Below, piece by piece: positions 1,958 through 15,500 of a DNA stretch of 18,039 bases. Every line of letters begins with the position of its first letter. The first letter of the stretch is position 1. This DNA is from a virus (taxonomy: Duplodnaviria; Heunggongvirae; Uroviricota; Caudoviricetes). The stretch lies in IMG/VR virus record IMGVR_UViG_2693429706_000001. One strand, given 5' to 3'. A model generated the notes under the pieces. The model was not told the origin of the DNA and did no database searches. It saw only the letters and a program-made list of their open reading frames with translations. Both the position numbers and the translations under genes were made by a program.

Positions 1958-4900
1958 TACCGATATGCTCCACTTAACCGACCACCATCACGGGCCTGCT
2001 GTTGCATAAAGTCCGCTGCCGCTTTTTTCCCAAGGTCATAAACCACCTTCAGGGCAGCCGGACCTATCTGCCCGTTCGTGCCATCGTTATTGATCTCGAT
2101 GTTGTACTGCGGGGCAAACATCGCCATACCTGAACCACCAATATCCGCCACAACCCCCAGCTTACCGTCAGCACCACGACGCAGTGGCAGAATGGCTTCA
2201 GGTCCCGCTTCCCCCATCACACCCGCGCCTTTTGCAAAAGCAAAAAACGTCGGACGGTTAACCACCGTGCCACTGTAACGACTCAAATCAGCAGACTGAT
2301 AAATCCCCCCATTGGCATTCAGGGAAAGGCTGCTGAGATCAAATCCCAGTACACTGCCAATCCCTTTTATCGATTTCATCATGGTTGCCTGCGCCAGGAT
2401 TTTCGCCATATCTGACAGCACCGAAGAGGTGAAGGATTTGAAGTTGAGTTTGCCGGTAGTGACAAAAGTTGCCAGGCCATTTCCCATGTTGCTGAAGGCT
2501 GACGAGAACACCTGTTCTGCTGTTCCTGCCGTATTGTCTGCATCCACGGTAAAATCCTGAAATGCACGCAGGACTCCGTTTTTCCAGTTACCCTGCACAA
2601 CTTCAAGCTGTTGCCAGTAACGGCGATTCTCATTCAGTTGTCGGTTCAGGCTCTCCGTCAGCGCCTGCTCGGCCTTTCTGTAGTCATCCGTGTTATATGT
2701 CCCTTTCTGCTCACTATCCCGCCTCAACTGCTCCAGCTGTTGCTGGTATTTCTGGCGAAGACTCAGTTGTACCTGATATCGCTGCCGCTGCTGATCACCC
2801 ATACCCACCGTGGCGATATCCAGGTCATGTTGCTGACGCTGAGCGAGCTCTTCTTCAGCCAGTTGACTGGTCAGCTGAATTGTTTTTTTCTTCAGATCGT
2901 TGAGTGCCGTCTGTTTCTGAAGCTCCTGCTGTTTTACATCCAGCAGCGTCAGTGCCTGAATCAGTTCATCTTTACGGGCCAGCACACTCTTTTCATCTGC
3001 CGTCAGTTTTTTCCCGTCCAGATCGCTGATGCGCTGCTGCAGAGCCAGAAGCTGTTTATGCGCTTCTGTCATCTTTTCAGTGGCAATGCCTGCTGACTGT
3101 CTTGCAGCAGCAATCTGTCCTTCCACCTGTGCCTGTTGCTGACTGTACTGCAGCAATAACCGGGTGGCCTCATCATTACGGGTTTCGCGTGTTTTTTTCT
3201 TACCGGATGCCAGGGCTTTCTCGTAACGTTCATTTTCACGTTGTATCGCTGCATCCCTGACAGCCTGATCGGCGTACTGCATGGCATTAATACGCGCAAT
3301 TTCACGCTGATGTCGTGCTGCTTCCGTTTCATTCATCCGGTTCAGTGCAGCATTTTCAGCATTACGTCGTTTCTGTTGCTCCTGATAATTCCGCTCTGCC
3401 TGCTCTTTTGCATCCTGCAAATCCTTCTGGCGTTTTTTCTCCTGAAGATCGTTAAGACGCTGCTGATCGTATTCAACCTGAGAAGATGATGCCGTCCAGG
3501 GGAGTCTTTTCGCCCGCGACACTTTCTCCTGTAAAGCGGCAATCTGTTCATCCAGCGAGTCTTCACGACCAATATTCATGGCCGCATCCCAGAAACGACT
3601 CCATAAATCAGACAGATACTTCAGCGTACTGCCAAGCGCATTGAGGTTATTATCAATATCCGCAGTACGCCGACCGGTTTCCTCTGCCAGTGCAGACATG
3701 GCTATCCGTGCAGCATCACTGGACCGTCCCTGATCCCCAAGGACACGTATCTGCTCAAGCTGAGTGGCAGTAAGAAAATGCAGCTCATTGTCCAGAGCCT
3801 TCGCGGCATTTACAGGATCATCCTTCAGCCGCTTAAACTGATTTATGGTATCGCTGACCGACTGGCCAACCGATCGCTCCATCTGTGCGGCAGCTCTCGC
3901 CACCATACCGATATCGTTTCCACGAAATGCACCACTCCCCACCACCTGAGCCAGCACACCGGCTGCAGCATGTTGCGTGATACCATTCCCGGAAATAGCA
4001 CGACTGAGCGTCCACAGCTGCCCGGCAGTGACTCCGGCATAATGCCCCGTCAGCGACAACTGGCGGTTAAATTCTTCCCCCTCCTTCTGACCGTCATACC
4101 AGGCTTTACCCAGACCATAGACGGACGCGGCAATACCGCCAATAACCCCGCCAAGCATCATGCCTTTCGGTGACATCAGAGTGTCTATCCATCCGGCACG
4201 GTTAGCCAGCGTTATCCCGGATCCCCTCAGCGCCCCTAAATTGCCGCGGGCCAGTTCACCTATCAGAACGCCTATCTCCTGGCGGGCCGCTGCACTTTTC
4301 AGACCCAGCGAATGCGTGGCTTTTCCTGCCTGCTCCATTTTGCGGATATACACTTCTGCAGCACTGCTTACCCCCAGCTGGGCAGCCTTAGCACGAAGCA
4401 ACTCAGAAGAAGAAAGATTCTGGCGGGTTGCCTGCTCTTTAAGCTGACGGATAAACGCCACTTTCTGTCGGGTAGCCTCTTCCTCAGCCTGCGTAAGAAC
4501 ACGGGTTTTCGCCGTAACCTCAGAAATCAGCGCCAGATAATCCTGCTGACCAATCCCGCCACTGTTTCTGGCCTGTCGGATCTGCTGCTGAATACGCTGT
4601 AATTCCTGCAGCCCCGCACTGGCCTGTTTCACACTGTCAATCTGACGATAAAACGCAGCAGCTGCTTTATCCTGAGCCTCCGCCAGAGCCATGGCCTGCG
4701 CCTGTTCCTCGCGCATTTTCTGGCTCAGTGCCTCCATACGCTGGCGGGTTTTCTCCACCTCGCGGGCCATGCGTTCATGAGCCTGTGCGTTCTTCTCCAC
4801 CGTCTGCGCATGGACGGATGCGGCTGTTGCAGCCGAAGACGCCGCCTGCGTTGTCTGCCGGGCGGCCTGAGTCTGACGCTCCATAAAACGCTGCATACGG

Positions 4901-5022
4901 GCAGAAGACCGTTCTGCATCGCTGGCTGCACCATTCAGAAGGTTTTTGATACGGGGAATTTCATTTTTAAACTCTGCCGCATCAATCCCCAAATCAATGA
5001 CCAGGTTGGCTATCTGGTCCAT
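1957..5022 (-). CDS. tail tape measure protein (lambda gpH-like), about 1021 aa
   Basis: Very long ORF with an extended Q/E/R/A-rich coiled-coil centre and the lambda-H-like C-terminus ...NDGTNGQIGPAALKVVYDLGKK.... Start placed at ATG 5022 (MDQIANLVIDLGIDAAEF, aligning with lambda H MAEPVGDLVVDLSLDAARF) with GGAGG 8 nt upstream; the ORF-track start at 5052 is a TTG. Confidence 0.9.
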   Translation of the reverse strand: MDQIANLVIDLGIDAAEFKNEIPRIKNLLNGAASDAERSSARMQRFMERQTQAARQTTQAASSAATAASVHAQTVEKNAQAHERMAREVEKTRQRMEALSQKMREEQAQAMALAEAQDKAAAAFYRQIDSVKQASAGLQELQRIQQQIRQARNSGGIGQQDYLALISEVTAKTRVLTQAEEEATRQKVAFIRQLKEQATRQNLSSSELLRAKAAQLGVSSAAEVYIRKMEQAGKATHSLGLKSAAARQEIGVLIGELARGNLGALRGSGITLANRAGWIDTLMSPKGMMLGGVIGGIAASVYGLGKAWYDGQKEGEEFNRQLSLTGHYAGVTAGQLWTLSRAISGNGITQHAAAGVLAQVVGSGAFRGNDIGMVARAAAQMERSVGQSVSDTINQFKRLKDDPVNAAKALDNELHFLTATQLEQIRVLGDQGRSSDAARIAMSALAEETGRRTADIDNNLNALGSTLKYLSDLWSRFWDAAMNIGREDSLDEQIAALQEKVSRAKRLPWTASSSQVEYDQQRLNDLQEKKRQKDLQDAKEQAERNYQEQQKRRNAENAALNRMNETEAARHQREIARINAMQYADQAVRDAAIQRENERYEKALASGKKKTRETRNDEATRLLLQYSQQQAQVEGQIAAARQSAGIATEKMTEAHKQLLALQQRISDLDGKKLTADEKSVLARKDELIQALTLLDVKQQELQKQTALNDLKKKTIQLTSQLAEEELAQRQQHDLDIATVGMGDQQRQRYQVQLSLRQKYQQQLEQLRRDSEQKGTYNTDDYRKAEQALTESLNRQLNENRRYWQQLEVVQGNWKNGVLRAFQDFTVDADNTAGTAEQVFSSAFSNMGNGLATFVTTGKLNFKSFTSSVLSDMAKILAQATMMKSIKGIGSVLGFDLSSLSLNANGGIYQSADLSRYSGTVVNRPTFFAFAKGAGVMGEAGPEAILPLRRGADGKLGVVADIGGSGMAMFAPQYNIEINNDGTNGQIGPAALKVVYDLGKKAAADFMQQQARDGGRLSGAYR

Positions 5023-5718
5023 AACGCACACCTCCGGAAATACCTTCCCCAAGATGCATCAGTTCTTCGTCCGTTCGCTCCGGTATCCCGTTCTCTTCCG
5101 GTAAAAGGCTGAAATCAGCCACCGCAGCATCACTGCTGCCGGACACCATTCTCACGATCAATGCCTTCAGCGAGGCAAACTGCGCATCCATCCACACATC
5201 ACTGAAGCTCTGCATCCGGAAATAATCGCCCCACTCACCAAGCTCAGTGGCCGACATTTCCGACAGCATCCGCCGCCAGTCTGCCCGCCTGAACTCCCGG
5301 GCAAGCCGCATGACAAACTGCATTTCCCGCGTCAGGACTTTTCCGGCGTCAGCACCTCATGCTCCAAATCCCCGGCATTCTCAATGGCTCCCATACCGCT
5401 CAGCGACAGAACCATCTCCGCCCCCGCTCCCAGGGCATCATACGACCATGTTGTAATAACGGATGCGCAAAGCGTCTCAACATCCTGAGACTGTTCCGCA
5501 TTCCACAGTGAGCGGGAAACCAGCCAGGCATTGATATCCATCCCCATCCGCAGAAAAGCAATCTGTCGTTCAGCCTCCGGCAGTTCTCCCTCTTCGGCAT
5601 CAAACTTTGCCGTTCGCTGCTGAACAAACGCCAGATATTCAATTCTCTGCAGCCCGGACAGCTCACTGAGCACCACGGACTGCTTTTCATAATTAAACGT
5701 GCCCTGTTTCAGAAACAT
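4994..5718 (-). CDS. tail assembly chaperone G-T fusion, made by programmed -1 ribosomal frameshift near the end of G
   Basis: The T-like ORF (MQFVMRLAREFRRADWRR...) is in the -1 frame relative to G, is open from 5356, and overlaps the 3' end of G; a slippery-type heptamer GGAAAAG sits at 5344..5338. Same architecture as lambda G/GT. Confidence 0.7.
5332..5718 (-). CDS. tail assembly chaperone G
   Basis: MFLKQGTFNYEKQSVVLSELSGLQRIEYLA... aligns with lambda gpG (MFLKTESFEHNGVTVTLSELSALQRIEHLA...). Start chosen at the second ATG of ATGATG (5718), 6 nt after GGAG; the ORF-track start at 5760 is TTG and spans a terminator hairpin. Confidence 0.85.
   Translation of the reverse strand: MFLKQGTFNYEKQSVVLSELSGLQRIEYLAFVQQRTAKFDAEEGELPEAERQIAFLRMGMDINAWLVSRSLWNAEQSQDVETLCASVITTWSYDALGAGAEMVLSLSGMGAIENAGDLEHEVLTPEKS
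5338..5344 (-). other. candidate -1 frameshift slippery heptamer GGAAAAG (G GAA AAG in the G frame)
   Basis: Minus-strand sequence CCG GAA AAG TCC TGA closes G; shifting -1 gives GGA AAA GTC CTG ACG ..., which continues into T. The lambda site is GGGAAAG, one base different. Confidence 0.55.
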
Positions 5719-5734
5719 CATGTTCTCCACCTGC

Positions 5735-5758
5735 AAAAAAGCCCCGGATAACCGGGGC
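5735..5758 (-). terminator. intrinsic (rho-independent) terminator between V and G
   Basis: Minus-strand GCCCCGG-TTAT-CCGGGGC (perfect 7-bp GC stem, 4-nt loop) followed directly by TTTTTT; lies in the 57-nt V-G intergenic space. Confidence 0.7.
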
Positions 5759-5778
5759 AAATGATGAGTATCGTCCTG

Positions 5779-6522
5779 TTAACCTGCGGCGCTGACAGCC
5801 ACCGCAGCCACTGCCACAAAATCGCCGTCAGAAGTCATGCCCACAATGCTGACACTGCCCTGCTTCACGCCTTTCACCGTGGCCACAAGCCCGTTCAGGG
5901 TCACCGTGGCAGTCTGTGGATCTGTCGAATGCACACTGATCGCTTTGTCACTGGCTCCGTCAGGTTTTACTGTAAAGGTCAGCGTGGTGGTTGCTCCCAC
6001 TTTTACACTGGCAGATGCCGGTGCCACCGTCAGCCCGGTAACGCTCACTGTTTCAGTGCCTTCCTCTGCCAGATACGGACGCCCCACACCGCTGATTTTC
6101 ACTGTGTGGGTCATCACGTCTTTTGAGGCAATGGTTTTACCCAGTGAGCTCAGCCAGCCACGGAAAACATCAACAGTGCCGTTGGGATATTTGATACGAA
6201 ACGCGCAGACTTCACCGGAGTCGAACAACTGAACCAGTTTTTTCTGTCCGCTGTCACCCGGACGCCAGGCCAGCGTCGCCGAAGTATCACCGACGGATTT
6301 CTGCCCCTGGGTTGTCGTTTTCCAGTCTGCATCTTCATCATCGAGATAAGTGTCATCTTCTGCATCAGCGGTCATTTCGCCAGGTTGCAGATCCTTCACC
6401 ATCGCAAGACGCAGCCAGTCAGTGTCCGATAAAGGGTTCGCAAACGCATCGCCCTTGCCGGTGTACATCCAGAACGTCGTTCCCGCACCTTTCGTTTTTG
6501 CCAGTGGATTTGGTGTGGTCAT
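5779..6522 (-). CDS. major tail protein V with C-terminal Ig-like (Big_2-type) domain
   Basis: ...KTKGAGTTFWMYTGKGDAFANPLSDTDWLRLAMVKDL...DDEDADWKTTTQGQKSVGDTSATLAW... is collinear with lambda gpV; the C-terminal region (VTGLTVAPASASVKVGATTTLTFTVKPDGASDK...) is Ig-like. Start at ATG 6522, 6 nt after AAGGAG; the ORF-track first codon is GTG. Confidence 0.9.
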   Translation of the reverse strand: MTTPNPLAKTKGAGTTFWMYTGKGDAFANPLSDTDWLRLAMVKDLQPGEMTADAEDDTYLDDEDADWKTTTQGQKSVGDTSATLAWRPGDSGQKKLVQLFDSGEVCAFRIKYPNGTVDVFRGWLSSLGKTIASKDVMTHTVKISGVGRPYLAEEGTETVSVTGLTVAPASASVKVGATTTLTFTVKPDGASDKAISVHSTDPQTATVTLNGLVATVKGVKQGSVSIVGMTSDGDFVAVAAVAVSAAG

Positions 6523-6533
6523 TGCCACCTCCT

Positions 6534-6935
6534 TTAATTCGTGTACGTGATCTGGTACGTGATTTCCGCCATCGCCCAGGTGGCCATCTCATTATCACGT
6601 TGATAGTTAAAACCGAGAGGGATCAGGGTGTCGATGAGTCCGGAAAGTGCCGGTATATCATTCAGAGCCGGGAAAATGGTGCTCTCCATCCACATATCCA
6701 GCTCTGAATCCGGTGCCTGTGCCCGGATGAAGACAGCAATATGCAGAACAGCCTGCCAGTCATCTTCATCCGTCATTTTTCCGGTGTACTGAGCATCACT
6801 CAGCCACACCGCCACGGCAGGCAGTTCCTGCGCATCAATAAATGCCGGAAGCCCGTCAAAAAACGTGGCGCTGTCTCCACACTGTTCCCGAAGGCGTGCC
6901 AGTACGGCCTGGCGGATTTGTGTATGTCGGTTCAT
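6534..6935 (-). CDS. minor tail protein U (tail terminator)
   Basis: MNRHTQIRQAVLARLREQCGDSATFFDGLPAFIDAQELPAVAVWLSDAQYTG...ITYQITY aligns with lambda gpU along its length; the ATG overlaps the Z stop (ATGA). Confidence 0.88.
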   Translation of the reverse strand: MNRHTQIRQAVLARLREQCGDSATFFDGLPAFIDAQELPAVAVWLSDAQYTGKMTDEDDWQAVLHIAVFIRAQAPDSELDMWMESTIFPALNDIPALSGLIDTLIPLGFNYQRDNEMATWAMAEITYQITYTN

Positions 6936-7510
6936 CGGGTCAGCCATAACCTCAGTTGTTGTTTCAGTGCATACCCCAGCTGTTTCGGCATTTCCGCAGC
7001 AATGATGCGGTCGCGGGCATCTTCAAATGCCTGTGTCAGCGGTCCGGAAAGCGGGATTTTCACCACATCAATGGGGTAACGATTTTTGCCATCAATACGC
7101 CGCATCACATGCCAGCGACCATTCGCCAGTTGCTGAATAAACGCATCCCGGAAAAGATATTTACCCACCTTCAGCACACTGCCACGGTACTGCAGTTTTC
7201 CACCACGCCGGGCCAGTCTGACCCGGGCTGTCCCCAGCTTAATGGCGGGCAGATTGCCCCGGTTAACGCGGATCCTGGCCGTCATTTTTCCTGACGGACT
7301 GGCTTTAAACACCCGGACACGCTGACGTACCAGTTTCAGGGGGATCCCTTTCACCTGGTTATCTCCCGCAACGGTATTCCCGGCAACCTGCCGGGTGGCA
7401 ACCGAGACCGCTTTCTGTGCCACACGGTTTATCGCCCATGCGCTGGCCTGTGGCACCATACGGGTATCAAGGCTGTTCAGATTGCGGATGGCATTCTCAA
7501 GCCCCTTCAT
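6932..7510 (-). CDS. minor tail protein Z (lambda gpZ family)
   Basis: 192-aa ORF (same length as lambda gpZ) located between the FII-like and U genes; AGAGGTG Shine-Dalgarno lies upstream of ATG 7510. Confidence 0.8.
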   Translation of the reverse strand: MKGLENAIRNLNSLDTRMVPQASAWAINRVAQKAVSVATRQVAGNTVAGDNQVKGIPLKLVRQRVRVFKASPSGKMTARIRVNRGNLPAIKLGTARVRLARRGGKLQYRGSVLKVGKYLFRDAFIQQLANGRWHVMRRIDGKNRYPIDVVKIPLSGPLTQAFEDARDRIIAAEMPKQLGYALKQQLRLWLTR

Positions 7511-8199: not shown

Positions 8200-10209
8200 T
8201 TACGCCGTACATTTCACCAGACCGCGGTGATCAACTGGCGCGACACCGGCGTCAATACGCACTTTCGTTGTCACGCCATCCACACTGAAGCCCTCCATCT
8301 GATCAATATATGGCGTATCCACACCGTTGAGATAAGCCACTTCAATCGTATCGGAGCCTTTTGACGCAGCCAGGTAGAAGGTGGTCTGGCTGTTATCATC
8401 AAGACGAGGCTCTGCAATAACGGTCGCAAAATCTTTCACCGGGTTAATAATACCGGCGTTAATGTCAGCCCCCTTGACACTTGAGGAGCGAATGACCTGG
8501 TTAGCAACAGACTCCATCGCCGTCGGTACCAGTACGAACGCAGGACGAATATTCAGATGACGCTCCCCCTCTTTCTGAACGCGCATCAACTGGCGGGCTT
8601 TATCCAGCGATGCCACGTCCATTGCAGCGCTCTCCAGTACGTTTGCATGTTTCGCTTTATCGAACAGACTTACATTATCTGTGGAGATTTTCGGGTTAGA
8701 CGTCAGAATGGCATAAACCAGATCGGCAATAGTGGATTTCGCCGCACGGCCCAGTTTCATCGGGACATCGGTCAGCATATTCAGATCATCATTGATAATG
8801 GCCTGACGGGTGATACTGAACAGCTCGCCATAGGTCGCCAGTGCAATAGTGGCCTGTTTATCTCCGGTGGTGACGTATTTATATTCCGCCCCTTCACGCA
8901 CCTGACGCAGAGCACTGAAGCCACCCATACCCACACGATGGGCAATTTTAAAATCAGACAACTGACCTTTCCGCGTCCACTGTTCATAGGTTTCAGGGGC
9001 ATCTTCCCAGCCCTGCAGAATGGCTTTGTTCGCAACATCCAGCAGAATATTACCGAAGTCAGACGTACTGTGTGTGAACGCCGCACCGACCATCTGCATC
9101 GGGTTATAACTGGAAACCCCAATACCCCGTTCAGTCAGTGACATACGGGCATATTCACGCAGGGTCATCCCGTTGTAGACATTATCACGTTCGGTTTTTT
9201 CAAATCCGGCACGCGCCATCAGCGCCTGGCGGATCCCGTCCCCCACAAAATTACCGTTACCGGCATAAATATGAGCCGGGGTATTTTTATTGGATGGCGT
9301 GGACTCGCGCCCCATCTCGTTCAACAGCTTTTCGCGGGCCTGCTCCAGCGAACATTCAGGATCGGCAAGACACTGAGCCTGCAGCGTCTGATAACGCCCG
9401 CCAAACATGGCAAACAGATCATTAATACCGTTTACACGCGCTTTTTGCTCTGCCAGTACCTGCGCACGGATGCTGTTTTCATCCACCACGGGTGCTGCTG
9501 CCTGCACTGGCGTCCGGGAGGCTTCAGGTTCATTATCCTGTACGCGTGGAGCACTGTTGCGTGGCGGAGTAATCATGTTTCGAATGGATTCCGGCATCTT
9601 TTTAAATTCCTCTGTACGTTTTGACTGAATACATGCCATTGCCTTAACGGCTGGCGTTACCTGATCAGCAAATCCATGTGCCAGACATTCGGCACCGGAC
9701 ATCCAGGTCTCATCCGCCAGCATGGCAGCAATTTCATCGGTGGTTTTCCCGGTTTTCTGTGCATAAGCGGGTAACAGAACCGCCTCAACTTTATCGAGCA
9801 GGTCGGCATAGGTGCGCATGTCCTCCGCATCACCGCCCGTAAAGCCAAATGGTTTATGAATCATCATGAAGGTGTTTTCCGGCATAATGACCGGGTTTCC
9901 CACCATCGCAATGACCGACGCCATTGACGCCGCCACACCGTCGACATAAACGGTAATGGACGCACCATGTGTTTTCAGCGCATTAAAAATGGCGATGCCT
10001 TCAAAGACATCGCCACCCGGTGAATTAATATGGAGATTAATGTGGGTGATATCGCCCAGTGCATTCAGATCACTGATAAACTGCTTCGCTGTAACACCCC
10101 AGAAACCAATCTCGTCATAAATATAAATATCCGCGTCACTCTGGTGACCAGCCTGCATCCTGAACCAGGAATTATTCTTCGGACTGGTCGTCGGTGTGCT
10201 GCGGCTCAT
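8200..10209 (-). CDS. fused prohead protease (ClpP/S14-like) - scaffold - HK97-fold major capsid protein
   Basis: N-terminal region has ClpP hallmarks (INSPGGDVFEGIAIFNAL..., VDGVAASMASVIAMVG with the nucleophile Ser, MIHKP with the His); a central Ala/Gln/Glu-rich linker; the C-terminal ~300 aa resemble a phage major capsid protein. Start uncertain: ATG 10209 overlaps the portal by 38 nt, the alternative ATG at 10158 lies 13 nt after the portal stop; neither has a strong Shine-Dalgarno. Confidence 0.8.
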   Translation of the reverse strand: MSRSTPTTSPKNNSWFRMQAGHQSDADIYIYDEIGFWGVTAKQFISDLNALGDITHINLHINSPGGDVFEGIAIFNALKTHGASITVYVDGVAASMASVIAMVGNPVIMPENTFMMIHKPFGFTGGDAEDMRTYADLLDKVEAVLLPAYAQKTGKTTDEIAAMLADETWMSGAECLAHGFADQVTPAVKAMACIQSKRTEEFKKMPESIRNMITPPRNSAPRVQDNEPEASRTPVQAAAPVVDENSIRAQVLAEQKARVNGINDLFAMFGGRYQTLQAQCLADPECSLEQAREKLLNEMGRESTPSNKNTPAHIYAGNGNFVGDGIRQALMARAGFEKTERDNVYNGMTLREYARMSLTERGIGVSSYNPMQMVGAAFTHSTSDFGNILLDVANKAILQGWEDAPETYEQWTRKGQLSDFKIAHRVGMGGFSALRQVREGAEYKYVTTGDKQATIALATYGELFSITRQAIINDDLNMLTDVPMKLGRAAKSTIADLVYAILTSNPKISTDNVSLFDKAKHANVLESAAMDVASLDKARQLMRVQKEGERHLNIRPAFVLVPTAMESVANQVIRSSSVKGADINAGIINPVKDFATVIAEPRLDDNSQTTFYLAASKGSDTIEVAYLNGVDTPYIDQMEGFSVDGVTTKVRIDAGVAPVDHRGLVKCTA

Positions 10210-11680
10210 GTCGTTTCGTTGCGGCACTGCTGCCTCCTTTATCACTGGCCGGATCGGTATCAAATACCAGATCCAGCTTGCGGTTTTCATCAATTTCGGC
10301 CTTGCGCCGACGTTTGACATCATCCGGATTACGACCACCAGCACGTACCCAGTCTGATTCTGTCGCCGCTCCACCACGAATCTGGATTTTCCAGGCCTCA
10401 GCCTCCTTAACAGGGTCAATCCACGGCATCACCGGTCCGGAATACACCGCGGTATACAGTGAAGAACGGTCAAGATCGCGGGGTAGCCTGATAACACCGG
10501 ATGCCACAGCCTGTTTCAGCCAGGCACGATACATCGGACGGGTGACGGCACCAATAAACCAGTCCTGCAGGATCAGGTAGCCATCAGTGGATTCAACCAG
10601 CTCCTGACGCTGGGCGCTGTAAGTGCCGTTATAGTTGCGCGCTGTACTGGAAAAACTCAGACGACTGCCCGCCGCCACGGCACGCAACTGACCATTACGA
10701 AAAGTTTCAAGGTTAGGATTGGGGCGATCCGACTTCACCATTCCGATTTCTTCGCCGGGTTTCAGATCATCGTAAATAATGCCTGGCTGAATGGTAAGCT
10801 CGCGTTCCTTATCCTTGCTGCCATTACCATCCGCTTCATAGCTCTGCCCGTCGCCTTTCCGGATGTACATCCCCAGAGCAGCGGCGATCCTTGCTGCAGT
10901 CAGCTCAGAATCTTCATACTCTTTCAGAGCACTGAGGCGGATCAGCACACCGGACAATAAAGACGTCCCGCGCATCTGGTGCAGACGGCGAACAAATTTA
11001 AGATGCAGCATTCGCTCTGCATCCACTTCTTTGGTTTCCATCTGCCGTCCGGATACGGGACGGCTTTTATACACCAGATATTTTTCGGGACGCCCCCAGT
11101 CATCAACAAACACGCCCTGATTCAGCCTGTTGCTCTCATCACTGGTCATGGGAATAAAGTCCGGCTCGAGCGCCTCCAGCCAGAAATGAACACCGGCAGA
11201 AGGCGTCAGGCTGTTTATGCGCCCGGAAACCATCTGGGCAAACACCTCACCATCGCGCAGCCAGGTACGAAGCATCAGACGTTCCAGCATCGGACGGGTA
11301 AACTGCCCGGTGACTTCCGGGCTGACAGACCATTCACTCCATCGGGTGCGAATCTCCGCAGCCAGGTCACGGGCAATGGCCCCATTGCGTAATACCGGAT
11401 GTGGCTCGACAATAATCCCGTTTTTCCCCACCACCCGTTCTTCCAGCTTGTCAAATACACCAATAACCAGATCGTGGTTGTTATCAAGGTAACGGGCCTG
11501 CTCACGTAACGACACGGCCCCGTACTGGCTTAACTGGTCGGCAGTTCGGTTCTCCCGTCGGGCTTTGTGTGTCCGCGTCGTTTTTACGGCCTCATAAGCC
11601 TGGATCACCGCACGGGAACGCAGCCTTGCCGCTTTCCATCCTGGTGAAAAAACGCCAATCACATCATCAAGAATTGCCAT
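10172..11680 (-). CDS. portal protein (lambda gpB family)
   Basis: 502-aa ORF in the portal position between gpW-like and protease genes. Start set at ATG 11680 (MAILDDVIGVFSPGW...) with GAGG 5 nt upstream and a 1-nt overlap with the W stop (TGATG). Confidence 0.85.
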   Translation of the reverse strand: MAILDDVIGVFSPGWKAARLRSRAVIQAYEAVKTTRTHKARRENRTADQLSQYGAVSLREQARYLDNNHDLVIGVFDKLEERVVGKNGIIVEPHPVLRNGAIARDLAAEIRTRWSEWSVSPEVTGQFTRPMLERLMLRTWLRDGEVFAQMVSGRINSLTPSAGVHFWLEALEPDFIPMTSDESNRLNQGVFVDDWGRPEKYLVYKSRPVSGRQMETKEVDAERMLHLKFVRRLHQMRGTSLLSGVLIRLSALKEYEDSELTAARIAAALGMYIRKGDGQSYEADGNGSKDKERELTIQPGIIYDDLKPGEEIGMVKSDRPNPNLETFRNGQLRAVAAGSRLSFSSTARNYNGTYSAQRQELVESTDGYLILQDWFIGAVTRPMYRAWLKQAVASGVIRLPRDLDRSSLYTAVYSGPVMPWIDPVKEAEAWKIQIRGGAATESDWVRAGGRNPDDVKRRRKAEIDENRKLDLVFDTDPASDKGGSSAATKRHEPQHTDDQSEE

Positions 11681-11892
11681 CAGAACCTCGCCAGCCGATA
11701 CCCGGGATGCCCCCGTCGTCGTGTAATCAGAGCCGCAAGGCGGCGCTCCCACTCCTGCCGTCCCTGCCGGATCTCAGATAAGTTTTCCATGGTCATCTGC
11801 TGACCATTAAAGGTGACGGATTTTCCGTCCAGCACCGCCATTTCAGCTTCCGTATAACGCTGAATCATGGCTTCGATATCATTCTGGTTCAT
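11680..11892 (-). CDS. head-tail joining protein (lambda gpW-like)
   Basis: About 70 aa, MNQNDIEAMIQRYTEAEMAVLDGKSVTFNGQQMTMENLSEIRQGR...RRRGHPGY resembles lambda gpW (..[32 protein letters not shown]...RRRGPAGF); the ATG overlaps the terL stop (ATGA) and GGAGG is upstream. Confidence 0.75.
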   Translation of the reverse strand: MNQNDIEAMIQRYTEAEMAVLDGKSVTFNGQQMTMENLSEIRQGRQEWERRLAALITRRRGHPGYRLARF

Positions 11893-13988
11893 AACCATCC
11901 TCCGGAAGTCAGCCAGGGGTTAACATCGTCAGTTACTGTTTTCTTCCGTTTTTGTTTTTTAACAGGCGTGGATACCGGTTCCGGTGAGGATGACGGTTCG
12001 GTACTGTCCGGGACACACTCCAGCCAGGTTTCCCGGCTCGCCCACTCCGGTGCATCCGGCCAGCGGATCTTTTCGTATCCATGCAGAATGACCAGAGCCT
12101 CGGCATACACCATCAGGTCAAAAGCTTCGTTGGCACCGCGACCCGGCTTACTCCATTTCCCGTCACTGCTCCGCTCTTCATACGTCAGTTCGTCGTAAAA
12201 CCAGCTCCCCAGCCAGTCAGGGAAATGCACATAGCCGGGACCTGGCGAGTCACGCCATAACGCGTTATTCACCCGGTCTTTCAGTGCATCCGTCTGAAGA
12301 AGCCAGAGCGGCACATCACCTGCGGCCTGCGCCCGTCGGCCCGTTCGTCCGGTGTTATCAGGGAATGTACGGGTGATCAGTTTTGCGCGCCGGATGCTGT
12401 CGCCCTTAAACAGGTAAATACGTTTACCAAGGCCATCACGACGGCAACGACGCCAGAATTTATAGGCATTATCAGTGACCCCGTCTTCACCGCCGGAGTC
12501 CACCGCCATTGCCATCAGTCGCATTTGTTGAGAAGGATCGGAGGCCAGCGGCCAGCTTTTATGAAAAACATCCGTCAGCAGGACATCCCAGTCTTCCGGA
12601 TAGCTGGCCGGATCAATTCGCTGGCTCTCCCCGTCGCTGTCACCGCGCAATGACTGCGTGATGTTGTAACGATCAATAATCCAGCGTTCGCCACGGCTGC
12701 CATAGCCCGTTACCTGAACCACAAAACGGCGATGACGTCCCGCCTGCACATCCACTGTCGCCACAAGAAAATTAACGCCATCCGGCACACTGCGGGAAGG
12801 AACTGGCTCTGCCCGCTGCTCAAGCAGTTCACTTTTTCGTTGCTCCATGCTGGCGCGGGGAAGATAAGGTAATCCCCAGTCGGTGTTGATAACCGCCCTG
12901 AGTGTTTCTTCACTTCCTGTCGCTTCATACTCCTGTTCTGCAGTCAGTAATTTGTAAACCAGTTGCGCCCAGGTCTGATACGCAGCAGCTGGCCCTTCCA
13001 TCCAGAAACTGGCGATACGGGAGCGGCGCGGTTCACCGGAAACGTTGCCGTTACAATCAATGACCTGACCTTCACGCAACCAGACTCCTGCACTATTGAG
13101 CTCACGCTTTTTCTCCGCCGTGATAATGCCGCTGCAGTGCGGGCAAAGTAGATACGCCGCCTCACTGGCTTTAAAGGGATCCGGTTCATTACGGTAGCCG
13201 GTCATGGCATCCATGGCTGGCTGAAAATATTCACCGCAGTGCGGACATGGCCAGTACCAGCGGCGGCGGTCACCACGATTGTAAAGGGAAAGAATACCAG
13301 TCGTCGGTGGCGCTTCATGAGGCGACTTACGTCGCCATTTGCTGTCGCAGATGTCACGTCCCGGCGAGCTCTCCACCAGAGTCATCCCGGCGGACATAAA
13401 TGTGGTGGTACGTTTTGAGGCCAGGGAGAAACCATCACCCTCGCTGTCGATATTCTCCGGAAAACGGTCGTAATCGGTTAAGGCGACAAACCGGTAATCC
13501 GACGACGACATAATGTTGACCGAGGGCCAACCAATTTTAAGGAACGAGCCATCCCTGAACGTCTTATCATGGACATTATTGTCATTACGACGTGGACTCA
13601 TTCTTTTCTTTACCGCCGCACTGCTTCTGAACGTTCTGTCGAGGCGCTTTTTTGAATGCTCGCGGGCCTTATCTTCGGTCATCTGCACAACGAGCATGTC
13701 CGAAGGATCGCAAACGATGGTATAGACAATCCATCCATCGATCAGACCAATGGTCTTCCCTGTTCGCGCAGGACCAACAAAAATCACCGCATCGTATTCA
13801 CGCGATGCCAGGCAGTTCATGGGCTCAATGATGTAGGGTGTCAGTTCAGGATCCCATGGCACCGAGTTACCAGCCCCCTTGGGAACACGCATGAATTTTT
13901 TAACAGCCTCCGAAATCGGCATGCGACGTGGTGGGGAAAATCCTGCCGATATGTCCCTTCCCAAATTTCGGGCTGATGAAAAACCCAT
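11889..13988 (-). CDS. terminase large subunit (lambda gpA family)
   Basis: 699-aa ORF with a Walker-A-like VGPARTGKT motif and a CPHCGEYF zinc-binding motif (lambda gpA has CPHCGEEQY); GGAGG lies 4 nt upstream of ATG 13988. Confidence 0.92.
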   Translation of the reverse strand: MGFSSARNLGRDISAGFSPPRRMPISEAVKKFMRVPKGAGNSVPWDPELTPYIIEPMNCLASREYDAVIFVGPARTGKTIGLIDGWIVYTIVCDPSDMLVVQMTEDKAREHSKKRLDRTFRSSAAVKKRMSPRRNDNNVHDKTFRDGSFLKIGWPSVNIMSSSDYRFVALTDYDRFPENIDSEGDGFSLASKRTTTFMSAGMTLVESSPGRDICDSKWRRKSPHEAPPTTGILSLYNRGDRRRWYWPCPHCGEYFQPAMDAMTGYRNEPDPFKASEAAYLLCPHCSGIITAEKKRELNSAGVWLREGQVIDCNGNVSGEPRRSRIASFWMEGPAAAYQTWAQLVYKLLTAEQEYEATGSEETLRAVINTDWGLPYLPRASMEQRKSELLEQRAEPVPSRSVPDGVNFLVATVDVQAGRHRRFVVQVTGYGSRGERWIIDRYNITQSLRGDSDGESQRIDPASYPEDWDVLLTDVFHKSWPLASDPSQQMRLMAMAVDSGGEDGVTDNAYKFWRRCRRDGLGKRIYLFKGDSIRRAKLITRTFPDNTGRTGRRAQAAGDVPLWLLQTDALKDRVNNALWRDSPGPGYVHFPDWLGSWFYDELTYEERSSDGKWSKPGRGANEAFDLMVYAEALVILHGYEKIRWPDAPEWASRETWLECVPDSTEPSSSPEPVSTPVKKQKRKKTVTDDVNPWLTSGGWL

Positions 13989-13996
13989 TATTCCTC

Positions 13997-14524
13997 CTAG
14001 AGACTCTCTCCTTCCTCATCAGGAATTAATTCAGCAGCACAAGCCTCGTAGGATTTTTCCTGAAGAGTGTATCGCAGGTCATCAATGGCCTGCTGTACAA
14101 CGCCAACGGCCTGAGGAGTCAGGGCGCAATCGCGTTCAAGAACATCCGGAATTGTCTCCAGAACCTGGACGACAGCCTTTCTCATGGACGAATAGACGAT
14201 GACTACTTCATCAACGGGGATGAGTTTTCGCTGCTCCTTTTCCAGCTTGATCCTTTCATTTTCCGACTGGTACCAGTCCTTTCTCTCTTTCGGCTCCATA
14301 CGGGATGGATCATGAACAGAGTCTGCTGCCTCATGCTTCACACTAAACAGGGCAGGCCCGACATGCTGCAGGGCGTAAACGGGGTTCCCCCTGACAGTCG
14401 CAGCCACAGGAGTGTTGGCCGCGAGGAGCCGTTTTTTTACTGTGTCCCAGTGAAGCCCAAAGGCCTCGGCGATTTTAAAAACACTCCAGTAATAAGCATC
14501 ACCGATCCCGCTCACATTTGACAT
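13997..14524 (-). CDS. terminase small subunit
   Basis: About 175-aa ORF ending 9 nt before terL, so terS by position; not the lambda Nu1 sequence type. Start set at the second ATG (MSNVSGIG..., 14524) with GGAG 6 nt upstream. Confidence 0.7.
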   Translation of the reverse strand: MSNVSGIGDAYYWSVFKIAEAFGLHWDTVKKRLLAANTPVAATVRGNPVYALQHVGPALFSVKHEAADSVHDPSRMEPKERKDWYQSENERIKLEKEQRKLIPVDEVVIVYSSMRKAVVQVLETIPDVLERDCALTPQAVGVVQQAIDDLRYTLQEKSYEACAAELIPDEEGESL

Positions 14525-14811
14525 AAGCAACTCCATCTGGCAGGTGAAAATCAGGTTTATTTATATATTTCAATTAATTGCAAACTAGTCTAATGACAGG
14601 GAGAAAAAAATATTGTACAGCTGAAAAGAGAAATAACTTTTAATTATCAATAAATTACCAAACATGCTGCCGCCGCCATGGAAATGCAAAAACTAGCCTT
14701 TTTCCGCGACGCTCCCGCCCCGTGGCAGGGACCCCCACTGGGAGGACCCGACAGCCTGACAACCGTGACGAGCATCTGAAACAGAGCTTTACATAATGGC
14801 ATGGGGATAAT

Positions 14812-15003
14812 TCAGAAGGACATCACAGCATGCCCACACAAATTAGTGTGAGTGTCCTGTTTCTTACTACGCGCAGGACTGACGAGCATGAGGGGAAAAT
14901 ACGAGAACCGAAATGCCTTATCTTCAGAAATGCAGCCGGCATCCGAACTGGACGATATTGTAAATTCACCTAAATACGAGGCATTGCTGTAGTTGAATTG
15001 CAT
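14812..15003 (-). CDS. hypothetical 63-aa ORF (weak)
   Basis: ATG-initiated ORF with no recognisable Shine-Dalgarno and a low-complexity product; listed only because it lies in the cargo region. Confidence 0.2.
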   Translation of the reverse strand: MQFNYSNASYLGEFTISSSSDAGCISEDKAFRFSYFPLMLVSPARSKKQDTHTNLCGHAVMSF

Positions 15004-15086
15004 TGCTGTATTAGCCTGACAGTGACAGAATACGATATTGACTCTGTCACTTGTGAAATGGTCAGAATGGTTAGCAGTTATGGTGA

Positions 15087-15293
15087 TCAGTCAACCACCA
15101 GGGAATAATCCTTCGTATTCTTATCGTGCTTTACTAACGCGGCCTCAATTGCCCTGAATGCTTCCAGAGACACTTGATGTTCTATACATGCAATTACAAC
15201 ATCCGGGTAACCCATCGAAATGGTGCTATTAAGCATAGTTTTTACACGAACCTGCTCCTGGGAGGGGGCATCAGTGTATTGATCTTTATGCAT
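15087..15293 (-). CDS. hypothetical small protein (68 aa), uncharacterised moron
   Basis: ATG at 15293 preceded by GGAG with a 7-nt spacer; product [68 protein letters not shown]. Size and position upstream of terS recall the YbcW/YnfO-type small proteins of DLP12/Qin, but I cannot confirm this from memory. Confidence 0.45.
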
Positions 15294-15500
15294 TTTGTCG
15301 CTCCATGCGTTTGCTCTTCACTTACGGCTAAAAATATAACGTCAAATCACTCAGCATGAAAGAGTTAAAGATTCAGCGCGTTTCCCTTACATAATCTGTC
15401 GTTTGTATTCTCTTCAGGCATACCGGAAAGACTAGGTATTGTCACACAACCAATACCATCGACAATCGAGATTTATACCTATTCGGTAATGTTTAAATAT

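What the first reader, a model, noticed from the sequence alone, without database searches (positions are those of the whole stretch)
14537..14811. GC-rich structured element upstream of terS where cos is expected; canonical lambda cosN 12-mer not found
In lambdoid phages cos lies just upstream of the small terminase gene. Here the 275 nt upstream of terS go from an AT-rich stretch into a sharply GC-rich segment (about 14700-14760: CGCGACGCTCCCGCCCCGTGGCAGGGACCCCCACTGGGAGGACCCGACAGCC) with nested inverted repeats (CTCCC...GGGAG, GTGG...CCAC). By eye I could not find GGGCGGCGACCT or its complement. This may be a different cos/packaging site, a structured RNA, or a recombination scar.
Basis: seen in the sequence. 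Interest (0 to 1): 0.4.

Follow-up and report, generated by a model that had tools for sequence, protein, structure and literature searches.

The report
Lambda-type cos site, variant sticky end

Summary
The composition jump and the absence of lambda's exact GGGCGGCGACCT are real. The "structure" is not: folding energies match shuffled controls and Rfam finds nothing. Read on the minus (gene) strand, the GC-rich patch is a lambda-type cos site. It has cosQ GGGTCCT (14749-14743) and cosN ACG|GGGCGGGAGCGT|CGCGG (12-mer 14720-14709), followed by an AT-rich cosB with an exact IHF consensus (14645-14657), ending at terS. The 12-mer differs from lambda's at bp 7, 8, 9 and 11, inside the half Feiss's laboratory reports as naturally variable. 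The flanking CG dinucleotides, bp 1-6, the cosQ heptamer and its spacing (29 vs 30 bp) match lambda. GenBank records of phages cdtI and Tritos begin with this 12-mer and end with ...CCACG. In 106 related loci cosQ is at -29..-23 in 99, while the spacer and flanks vary. Three cosB types each pair with their own TerS type. Physical ends were not found mapped in any paper I could read, so the nick positions are inferred by homology. Ordinary and effectively already known; low interest.

The parts
14743..14749 (-). cosQ heptamer GGGTCCT, identical to lambda cosQ. It lies 29 bp upstream of the predicted nick; in lambda the distance is 30 bp.
   Evidence: It occupies exactly -29..-23 in 99 of 106 related loci, while the spacer next to it varies. 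Its role as the packaging-termination signal is taken from PMC4669245.
14724..14742 (-). Variable spacer between cosQ and cosN.
   Evidence: 27 sequence variants of -34..-1 among 106 loci. The CTCCC arm becomes CTTCC, CTCCT or CTTCT without compensation. No excess folding stability.
14707..14722 (-). cosN: CG|GGGCGGGAGCGT|CG. The predicted 12-nt 5' cohesive end GGGCGGGAGCGT is 14720..14709. Predicted nicks lie between 14721/14720 on the - strand and 14709/14708 on the + strand.
   Evidence: One match against 0.01 expected. The records of phage cdtI and phage Tritos begin with this 12-mer and end with ...CCACG. It differs from lambda at bp 7, 8, 9 and 11, and 8 of 16 positions are two-fold symmetric against 10 of 16 in lambda. 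Nick positions are inferred by homology, not mapped.
14681..14708 (-). Conserved segment bp 13-40 (CGCGGAAAAAGGCTAGTTTTTGCATTTC), in the position of lambda's I2 segment between cosN and cosB.
   Evidence: bp 13 to about 34 is shared by phages with three different cosB/TerS types and conserved across genera. Lambda I2 is required for termination according to PMC4669245. Assigning that role here is inference.
14663..14680 (-). CATGGCGGCGGCAGCATG, bp 41-58: the candidate primary TerS-binding site, in the position of lambda R3.
   Evidence: It is specific to cosB type A and co-occurs 1:1 with the cdtI-type TerS. The homologous position holds CATGCTGGCGGCAGCATG in Scandinavium and CATGCTGTCAGCAGCAGG in Providencia, Rahnella and Xenorhabdus. 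Lambda R3 lies at bp 50-65. Binding is inferred.
14645..14657 (+). Exact IHF consensus WATCAANNNNTTR (TATCAATAAATTA), bp 64-76 from the nick, in the position of lambda I1.
   Evidence: 3 matches in 18 kb against 0.64 expected, one of them here. Present at bp 64 in 34 of 34 type-A loci, at bp 62 in 53 of 56 type-C loci, and at bp 64 in PSTCR8lys. The TTGAT core is invariant in alignment A1.
14615..14624 (-). TCAGCTGTAC, bp 97-106: a degenerate counterpart of the inverted GGTGACA element of relatives, in the position of lambda R2.
   Evidence: Alignment A1, columns about 155-166. PSTCR8lys and Fels-1 have a clear inverted repeat copy at this position. Weak evidence; inference.
14567..14601 (-). 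Conserved block CCCTGTCATTAGACTAGTTTGCAATTAATTGAAAT, bp 120-154. It contains a direct CTGTCA (14594-14599) that is R1-like.
   Evidence: Nearly identical in Scandinavium and recognisable in Yersinia although the flanks have diverged; TGTCA is invariant in A1. Its function is inferred.
14537..14546 (-). CACCTGCCAG, bp 175-184: a conserved element just upstream of the terS ribosome-binding site.
   Evidence: CACCTG.CAG is conserved in all six sequences of alignment A1. A weak direct repeat partner, TTTTCAGCTG, lies at bp 94.
13997..14536 (-). terS, small terminase of the DUF1441 family. The probable true start is the ATG at 14524 (175 aa), preceded by GGAG.
   Evidence: PF07278, E = 5e-43. phrog_141 'terminase small subunit', E = 1e-63. 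99.4% identical to TerS of cdtI, Tritos and HannyBb. No significant similarity to lambda Nu1. Start codon.
11889..13988 (-). terL, large terminase of the lambda gpA family (ATPase plus endonuclease): the enzyme expected to nick cosN.
   Evidence: PF05876, E = 5e-81, and PF20454, E = 2e-86. 24% identity to lambda gpA over 627 aa, E = 7e-22.

Best explanation
Window 14525-14749, read on the minus strand, is the cohesive-end site (cos) of a lambdoid prophage of the cdtI/Tritos type, built on the lambda plan. By analogy with lambda, TerS (DUF1441 family) binds the AT-rich cosB, with IHF bending the DNA at 14645-14657. This positions the gpA-type TerL on cosN, where it makes two nicks 12 bp apart and leaves the 5' overhang GGGCGGGAGCGT. 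DNA is then packaged leftward in window coordinates, through terS, terL and the head genes. When the motor reaches the next cos on the concatemer, cosQ (GGGTCCT), cosN and the conserved bp 13-40 segment direct the terminating cut. The GC-rich patch is cosQ, a spacer and cosN; the AT-rich stretch is cosB. Shown here: sequence homology, position, conservation pattern, the gene families, and the ends of deposited phage genomes. Inferred: the exact nick positions, TerS and IHF binding, and which cosB elements are the TerS sites.
For: (1) ACGGGGCGGGAGCGTCGCGG at 14704-14723(-) matches lambda's cosN at 16 of 20 positions, with both flanks intact. The flank pattern occurs once against 0.01 expected. 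(2) GGGTCCT, lambda's cosQ, lies 29 bp upstream of the nick, against 30 bp in lambda. (3) The distance from nick to terS is 185-197 bp, against 191 bp in lambda. (4) The downstream genes are a terS (phrog_141), a gpA-family terL, a head-tail adaptor, a lambda-family portal and a ClpP-capsid fusion. (5) The GenBank genomes of phage cdtI and phage Tritos start at GGGCGGGAGCGT and end at ...CTGCCACG, the same junction as lambda. Tritos forms plaques (PMC9928086); its TerS is 99.4% identical and its cosN-cosB is 98.4% identical to the window. (6) In 106 loci chosen only for the right-hand 25-mer, cosQ is at -29..-23 in 99. The spacer and outer flanks vary, and three cosB types each pair with one TerS type. 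(7) The same layout lies upstream of TerS homologues in Fels-1, VT1-Sakai, CP-1639, PSTCR8lys, Proteus, Providencia, Rahnella, Xenorhabdus, Halomonas and others. In these the right half of the 12-mer is hypervariable. (8) The substitutions (bp 7, 8, 9, 11) fall in the half reported as free to vary. Gifsy-1 differs at bp 8, 9 and 11, and the flanking CG pairs and cosQ are conserved (PMC4669245). (9) There is an exact IHF consensus at bp 64-76, conserved in position across cosB types. (10) No promoter-like or terminator-like site lies in 14400-15400, which is compatible with late transcription reading through cos into terS as in lambda (inference).
Against: I found no experimental mapping of virion ends for this cos type. 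The Tritos paper never mentions cos or termini. The cdtI paper (PMC1964815) and the Vahanian 2017 cosN survey were not available. The record ends may therefore have been set by analogy with lambda. None of the IMG/VR contigs carrying the site begins at the nick, but nearly all are prophages in isolate genomes, so this is uninformative. Type-A cosB shows no clear set of three R repeats of the kind the same scan recovers in lambda, Fels-1 and PSTCR8lys. TerS has no detectable sequence similarity to Nu1, and TerL is only 24% identical to gpA, so details of the mechanism may differ. Whether this particular prophage is inducible is unknown. An identical cos-terS survives in E. coli HS next to a truncated terL.
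Confidence: 0.9

Rival explanations
1. The sequence is a cos by descent, but in this prophage it is an unused relic: the prophage is defective and never packages DNA from it.
For: E. coli HS carries a 100% identical 275-bp region and terS next to a truncated terL fused to a tail gene. The region is thus often retained in decayed Qin-like prophages. 2,111 of 5,426 genomes have a match to the region, but only 614 carry 80% or more of the cos-terS-terL block.
Against: In this window terS, terL, the adaptor, the portal and the protease-capsid genes are full-length ORFs with strong family matches. The site differs from plaque-forming Tritos at only 3 positions in bp 1-184, none of them in cosN, the bp 13-40 segment, the bp 41-58 element or the IHF site. 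This rival concerns activity, not identity, so it is compatible with the main explanation.
Confidence: 0.15
2. A structured RNA element in the late transcript, such as a leader that regulates terS translation or processing.
For: The region probably is transcribed as part of the late operon (inference from lambda). The GC-rich core can be drawn as small hairpins.
Against: No Rfam match above chance: the best E-values are 1.3-9.8, far below the gathering scores, and are for eukaryotic families. Folding z-scores are 0.02, 0.62 and 0.87. The 5' arm CTCCC varies to CTTCC, CTCCT or CTTCT with no possible compensation in the fixed partner. Conservation is in blocks that match lambda's DNA sites, not helices.
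Confidence: 0.03
3. A recombination scar or mosaic joint with no function of its own.
For: Homology between phages breaks at about -35 (cdtI and phi458 against the window) and at about +35 (mEp460 type against the window). The conserved core is therefore bracketed by mosaic joints.
Against: A scar would not keep a 7-bp word at fixed spacing in 99 of 106 loci. It would not be conserved from E. coli to Halomonas upstream of terS homologues, and it would not coincide with the ends of deposited phage genomes. The joints are better explained by recombination within a conserved functional core.
Confidence: 0.03
4. A small protein-coding gene: the 51-aa ORF 14647-14802(-), called 'hypothetical protein' in phage HannyBb.
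For: An ATG-initiated ORF spans the site. Automatic annotation of HannyBb calls small CDSs here.
Against: No Pfam or PHROG match. RefSeq annotates nothing here in E. coli HS. The ORF would be cut in two by cos cleavage in virion DNA. Its N-terminal part lies in sequence that is replaced in cdtI and phi458.
Confidence: 0.02

Closest known systems
Phage lambda cos (cosQ-cosN-cosB; Feiss laboratory)
   Same: Identical cosQ heptamer GGGTCCT at nearly the same spacing (29 vs 30 bp). Identical CG/CG nick flanks and bp 1-6 of the cohesive end. CGCGG follows the 12-mer. An IHF consensus lies in cosB. The site sits about 190 bp upstream of terS, followed by a gpA-family terL.
   Different: The cohesive end differs at bp 7, 8, 9 and 11. 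The cosB sequence is unrelated and lacks an obvious R3/R2/R1 triplet. TerS is DUF1441, not Nu1, with no significant similarity. TerL is only 24% identical.
Phages cdtI (AB285204), Tritos (OV696610) and HannyBb (PP925841)
   Same: Same cos. The 12-mer is identical, the cosN-cosB stretch (bp 1-184) is 97-98% identical in cdtI and Tritos and the whole 275-nt region is 98.9% identical in HannyBb, and TerS is 99.4% identical. The cdtI and Tritos records are opened exactly at the 12-mer.
   Different: cdtI has a different sequence upstream of cosQ, but still GGGTCCT at -29. No cos feature is annotated in any of these records.
Gifsy-1 / Gifsy-2 / Fels-1 group of Salmonella lambdoid prophages
   Same: TerS of the same family (35-39% identity), gpA-type TerL and a fused protease-capsid gene. 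Gifsy-1 is listed among phages with lambda-like cohesive ends differing at bp 8, 9 and 11 (PMC4669245). Fels-1 has GGGCGGCAGCGG with CATCATCAT repeats in an R3/R2/R1-like layout.
   Different: The window also changes bp 7. Fels-1 and Gifsy-2 carry GGTACTC rather than GGGTCCT at the cosQ position. Their cosB motifs are different.
mEp460 / PhiR40_1 / phi458 lambdoid phages
   Same: The cosQ-spacer-cosN and bp 13 to about 34 are identical or nearly identical to the window.
   Different: From about bp 35 they carry other cosB types: CGTCATCACCAC (type C; mEp460, phi458) or GGCCACCATCATC (type B; PhiR40_1). Each is paired with a TerS only about 41% identical to the window's. They are probably different packaging-initiation specificities that share termination signals.
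cos of E. coli phage-inducible chromosomal islands (EcCI/PICI)
   Same: They have lambda-like cosQ and cosN with conserved spacing and no lambda-like cosB (PMC9026076).
   Different: In PICIs cos is followed by rpp, a TerS-redirecting gene, and there are no phage structural genes. Here it is followed by a complete terS-terL-portal-head module.

Membership tests
lambda-like cos site (12-base 5' cohesive ends related to lambda's; definition in PMC4669245) | Virion DNA carries 12-nt 5' single-stranded extensions. | not testable with these tools
   The only evidence is indirect. The cdtI and Tritos records start at GGGCGGGAGCGT and end at ...CCACG. No paper I could read maps these ends.
lambda-like cos site | cosN has conserved 5'-CG flanks at both nick sites and a conserved left half (bp 1-6, GGGCGG). 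Variation is confined to bp 7-12. | tested here: met
   CG|GGGCGGGAGCGT|CG, with differences from lambda at bp 7, 8, 9 and 11 only. The expected pattern is described in PMC4669245.
lambda-like cos site | A 7-bp cosQ (GGGTCCT) lies about 30 bp upstream of the nick. | tested here: met
   GGGTCCT at 14749-14743, which is -29..-23. The same position is occupied in 99 of 106 related loci.
lambda-like cos site | The site lies immediately upstream of terS and a gpA-family terL. | tested here: met
   The nick is 185-197 bp upstream of terS. TerL matches PF05876 and PF20454.
lambda-like cos site | cosN has partial two-fold rotational symmetry. | tested here: met
   8 of 16 positions are symmetric, against 10 of 16 in lambda and about 4 expected at random; 12 of 22 with wider flanks.
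lambda-like cos site, complex cosB subtype (R3-I1-R2-R1) | Three related TerS-binding repeats, the middle one inverted, with an IHF site between the first two. | tested here: inconclusive
   The IHF consensus is present and positionally conserved. The repeat scan recovers the R sites of lambda, Fels-1 and PSTCR8lys, but finds only weak 9-10-nt pairs in the window. Alignment with relatives suggests degenerate counterparts at bp 41-58, 97-106 and 122-127.
lambda Nu1-type small terminase | Sequence membership in the Nu1 family. | tested here: not met
   TerS matches DUF1441 (PF07278), not Nu1. BLASTP against Nu1 gives E = 3.4, and there is no PDB relative by sequence. It works like a TerS (phrog_141) but is not a Nu1-family member by sequence.
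Structured cis-regulatory RNA | A match to a curated RNA family, folding stability above a composition-matched background, or covariation that supports helices. | tested here: not met
   Rfam: nothing near the gathering scores. Folding z-scores of 0.02, 0.62 and 0.87. Uncompensated changes in the proposed stem arm.

The most novel reading that the evidence does not exclude
The type-A cosB (CATGGCGGCGGCAGCATG at bp 41-58, one IHF site, only degenerate downstream repeats) and its DUF1441 TerS may be an uncharacterised packaging-initiation specificity. It would be distinct from the lambda, 21 and N15 classes and from the mEp460-type and PhiR40_1-type modules, yet share identical cosQ-cosN termination signals with those two. 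Prophages of different initiation specificity in one cell (up to 7 copies of the region per E. coli genome) could then terminate at each other's cos. The conserved core would also act as the recombination joint that shuffles terS-cosB modules.
Probability: 0.3. Interest if true: 0.35.

Novelty: already known. Interest (0 to 1): 0.12.

Why it matters
It matters mainly for annotation. The canonical lambda 12-mer is a poor probe for cos in lambdoid prophages. The reliable signature is GGGTCCT, about 22 bp, then CG|GGGCGG......|CGCGG, lying 160-200 bp upstream of a gpA-type terminase operon. With that signature, cos can be placed in the 614 of 5,426 complete E. coli genomes that carry this cos-terS-terL block. 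The comparative data also show cleanly that cosQ-cosN is a shared module, while cosB and the N-terminal domain of TerS travel together. That fits the established lambda/21 specificity model and adds no new principle.

Tried and rejected
1. Searching lambda's 12-mer and 20-mer with up to 3 mismatches found nothing at the site, because it has 4 mismatches. A flank-anchored pattern was needed.

2. An Rfam scan at permissive E-values gave only chance hits to eukaryotic families.

3. RNA folding on both strands showed no excess stability.

4. I scanned IMG/VR for contigs that begin at the predicted nick, as an independent test of the ends. The 120 hits are nearly all prophages in isolate genomes and none starts at the nick, so the test is uninformative.

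5. Full-text searches for the 12-mer and its reverse complement found no phage paper. Asakura 2007, Vahanian 2017 and Feiss 2015 (Virology) are not held. The Tritos paper does not discuss termini.

6. PDB sequence searches with TerS and TerL found no relatives.

7. I looked for lambda-like R3/R2/R1 repeats in the window's cosB and found only weak pairs: AGGCTAGTTT/AGACTAGTTT, TTTTCAGCTG/TTTTCACCTG and CCTGYCA. I do not claim them as TerS sites.

8. I considered that the window is E. coli HS because the 275-bp region is 100% identical. I rejected this because terL is truncated in HS and intact here.

Full report
ORIENTATION AND CONTEXT

All long ORFs around the finding lie on the minus strand.
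- 13997-14536(-) is a DUF1441-family protein (Pfam E = 5e-43). PHROGs files it as terminase small subunit (phrog_141, E = 1e-63).
- 11889-13988(-) is a large terminase with both lambda gpA domains (PF05876 and PF20454).
- Next come a head-tail adaptor (phrog_118), a lambda-family portal and a ClpP-protease/capsid fusion.

The finding therefore has to be read on the minus strand. "Upstream of terS" means higher window coordinates.

THE OBSERVATION

The composition jump is real. GC is 0.23-0.35 across 14540-14660 and 0.72 in 14700-14759. The quoted string is at 14705-14756. Lambda's exact 12-mer is absent; hits with up to 3 mismatches are fewer than chance and lie elsewhere.

The claim of structure does not hold.
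- The 86-nt core folds no better than dinucleotide shuffles on either strand (z = 0.02 and 0.87), and neither does the whole 275 nt (z = 0.62).
- Rfam gives only chance-level hits to eukaryotic families.
- A repeat search at length 8 or more finds no inverted repeat in the GC-rich core.

WHAT IT IS

On the minus strand the patch reads ...GGGTCCTCCCAGTGGGGGTCCCTGCCACG GGGCGGGAGCGT CGCGGAAAAAGGC.... Lambda's ends, joined, read ...GGGTCCTTTCCGGTGATCCGACAGGTTACG GGGCGGCGACCT CGCGGGTTTTCGC....
- The two share the cosQ heptamer GGGTCCT, 29 and 30 bp from the nick respectively.
- They share the ACG before the nick, bp 1-6 of the cohesive end, T12, and the CGCGG after it.
- The flank-anchored pattern ACGGGGCGGNNNNNTCGCGG occurs once in the window (14704-14723, minus strand) against 0.01 expected.
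- The 12-mer differs from lambda's at bp 7, 8, 9 and 11.

EVIDENCE FROM DEPOSITED PHAGE GENOMES

A megablast of 14400-15100(-) against phage records gave a telling pattern. Phage cdtI matches from its base 1, at query position 381. Phage Tritos matches up to its last base, at query position 380. Both records begin GGGCGGGAGCGTCGCGG and end ...CTGCCACG. This is the same junction at which the lambda record is opened.

Tritos is an E. coli LF82 prophage that releases virions and forms plaques on K-12 (PMC9928086). Its TerS is 99.4% identical to the window's, and its first 184 bp are 98.4% identical.

Caveat: the Tritos paper never mentions cos or termini, and I could not obtain the cdtI paper. 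The record ends may therefore have been set by analogy rather than by mapping.

COMPARATIVE ANATOMY

Eleven phage and prophage sequences fetched by BLAST show the same core from cosQ to about bp 35, with unrelated DNA outside it. An IMG/VR scan for the right-hand 25-mer returned 120 loci, of which 106 were usable.
- cosQ was not part of the search pattern, yet it sits at exactly -29..-23 in 99 of the 106. The others are off by 1 bp or carry one substitution.
- The spacer has many variants.
- From about bp 35 the loci fall into three discrete cosB types. Each occurs with its own TerS type: 26, 14 and 54 loci with an intact ORF.

This is the lambda/21 situation described by Feiss: shared cosQ-cosN, with specificity carried by cosB and the TerS DNA-binding domain (PMC4669245).

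More distant TerS homologues keep the same layout 110-200 bp upstream of terS. They include Fels-1, VT1-Sakai, CP-1639, Providencia phage PSTCR8lys, and prophages of Proteus, Providencia, Rahnella, Xenorhabdus, Phytobacter, Kosakonia, Halomonas, Haliea and Marinospirillum. [quoted passage not shown]

The published pattern is the same. Positions 7-12 vary naturally (N15 at 9 and 12; Gifsy-1 at 8, 9 and 11). The CG flanks, the left half and cosQ are conserved. mEp213's GGGCGGCGCGCT is cited as a putative cos.

COSB

An exact IHF consensus lies at 14645-14657, bp 64-76 from the nick. There are three matches in 18 kb against 0.64 expected. The site is present at the same place in all 34 type-A loci, in 53 of 56 type-C loci and in PSTCR8lys.

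A scan for 9-mers with up to one mismatch recovers lambda's R3/R2/R1 as a positive control. It finds the same direct-inverted-direct arrangement in Fels-1 (CATCATCAT) and PSTCR8lys (CTGTCASC), with the first copy at bp 44-57. In the window it finds only weak pairs.

Alignment with Scandinavium (TerS 85% identical), Yersinia, Providencia and Proteus relatives shows conserved blocks:
- bp 13-40, in the position of lambda's I2 segment
- bp 41-58, CATGGCGGCGGCAGCATG, in the R3 position
- the IHF core
- a degenerate inverted element at bp 97-106
- a direct CTGTCA within a strongly conserved block at bp 120-154
- CACCTG.CAG just before the ribosome-binding site

I regard bp 41-58 as the best candidate for the primary TerS site. 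This is inference from position and from co-variation with TerS type.

The same alignment, the RefSeq annotation and the Tritos record place the terS start at the ATG at 14524, not 14536.

MECHANISM

By homology with lambda (PMC4669245 and PMC9026076):
1. TerS, with IHF, assembles on cosB.
2. TerL nicks cosN 12 bp apart.
3. DNA is packaged towards terS, terL and the head genes.
4. cosQ, cosN and the bp 13-40 segment of the next cos direct the terminating cut.

No promoter-like or terminator-like site interrupts 14400-15400, which is compatible with late transcription reading through.

The terminase proteins themselves are distant from lambda's. TerL is 24% identical, and TerS has no significant similarity to Nu1. 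So the DNA signals are better conserved than the enzymes. This is already implicit in the inclusion of Gifsy-1 among lambda-like cos phages.

PREVALENCE AND STATUS

The 275-bp region matches 2,111 of 5,426 complete E. coli genomes. The cos-terS-terL block is present at 80% coverage or more in 614. In E. coli HS an identical cos-terS sits in a decayed Qin-like remnant with a truncated terL. The window comes from a more complete relative. Whether this copy is active cannot be told from sequence.

VERDICT

This is an ordinary lambda-type cos site with a variant cohesive end. It is identical to the one at which the cdtI and Tritos genomes are already opened. It is not a structured RNA and not a scar. 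Interest is low. The useful by-product is a better search signature for cos in lambdoid prophages.

Noticed in passing
L008 (phage mEp460_ev081, LR597641.1) locus 2403-2598: Immediately after cosN, a stretch of about 98 bp of cosB is tandemly duplicated. It runs from GCTAGTTTTTGAAATTTCATCCGTCATCACC through the IHF consensus to ...GATTGTTTTTTGT. The duplication doubles the putative TerS and IHF sites.
   Followed up: no
L142 (E. coli HS NC_009800.1) locus 3888-7446: E. coli HS keeps a 100% identical cos region and an intact DUF1441 terS. Its terL is truncated after 378 nt and abuts a 5'-truncated tail-tip gene. This is a decayed Qin-like prophage (rrrQ, rzpQ, cspI, ynfN, gnsB upstream) that retains a complete cos.
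   Followed up: partly
window 14524-14536: Two in-frame ATGs could start terS. The alignment with relatives, RefSeq and the Tritos record support 14524, which is preceded by GGAG.
   Followed up: yes
L016, L017, L019, L020, L144, L148-L150 (Gifsy-2, Fels-1, PSTCR8lys, Chris1, Scandinavium, Yersinia, Providencia and Proteus prophages): At the cosQ position these relatives carry AAAAGGTACTCC instead of GGGTCCT. This is a consistent variant heptamer, although PMC4669245 states that natural variation in cosQ is not apparent.
   Followed up: partly
L012 (phage mEp460, JQ182728.1) locus 792-803: The mEp460 record reads GGGCGGGAGCGG (G at bp 12), whereas every other phage with this cos has T. This is either a real variant or an error at a former sequence end.
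   Followed up: no
window 8200-10419 (-): A 739-aa ORF fuses a ClpP-type protease domain to a major capsid domain. This is the Gifsy-2-type arrangement mentioned in PMC12315714.
   Followed up: no
window 14647-14802 (-) and HannyBb CDS0088/0089 (L007 3299-3531): A 51-aa ORF spans cosQ-cosN. Automatic annotation of phage HannyBb calls small hypothetical proteins across the cos site. There are no family matches and cos cleavage would split the ORF, so it is probably spurious.
   Followed up: partly
window 14942-15100 and 15087-15293 (-): A YbcW-like 68-aa gene (phrog_657) lies upstream of cos. The adjacent 159 bp are 81% identical to lambda 47931-48090, so the cos-proximal right arm is partly shared with lambda itself.
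   Followed up: no
L018 and L021 (VT1-Sakai, CP-1639): The cosN-like cores read CACG GGGCGGGCGGGCGCGG and CACG GGGCGGGCGGCGCGG. The distance between the conserved flanks appears to be 10-11 nt rather than 12, which suggests cohesive ends of a different length in these Stx-phage relatives.
   Followed up: no
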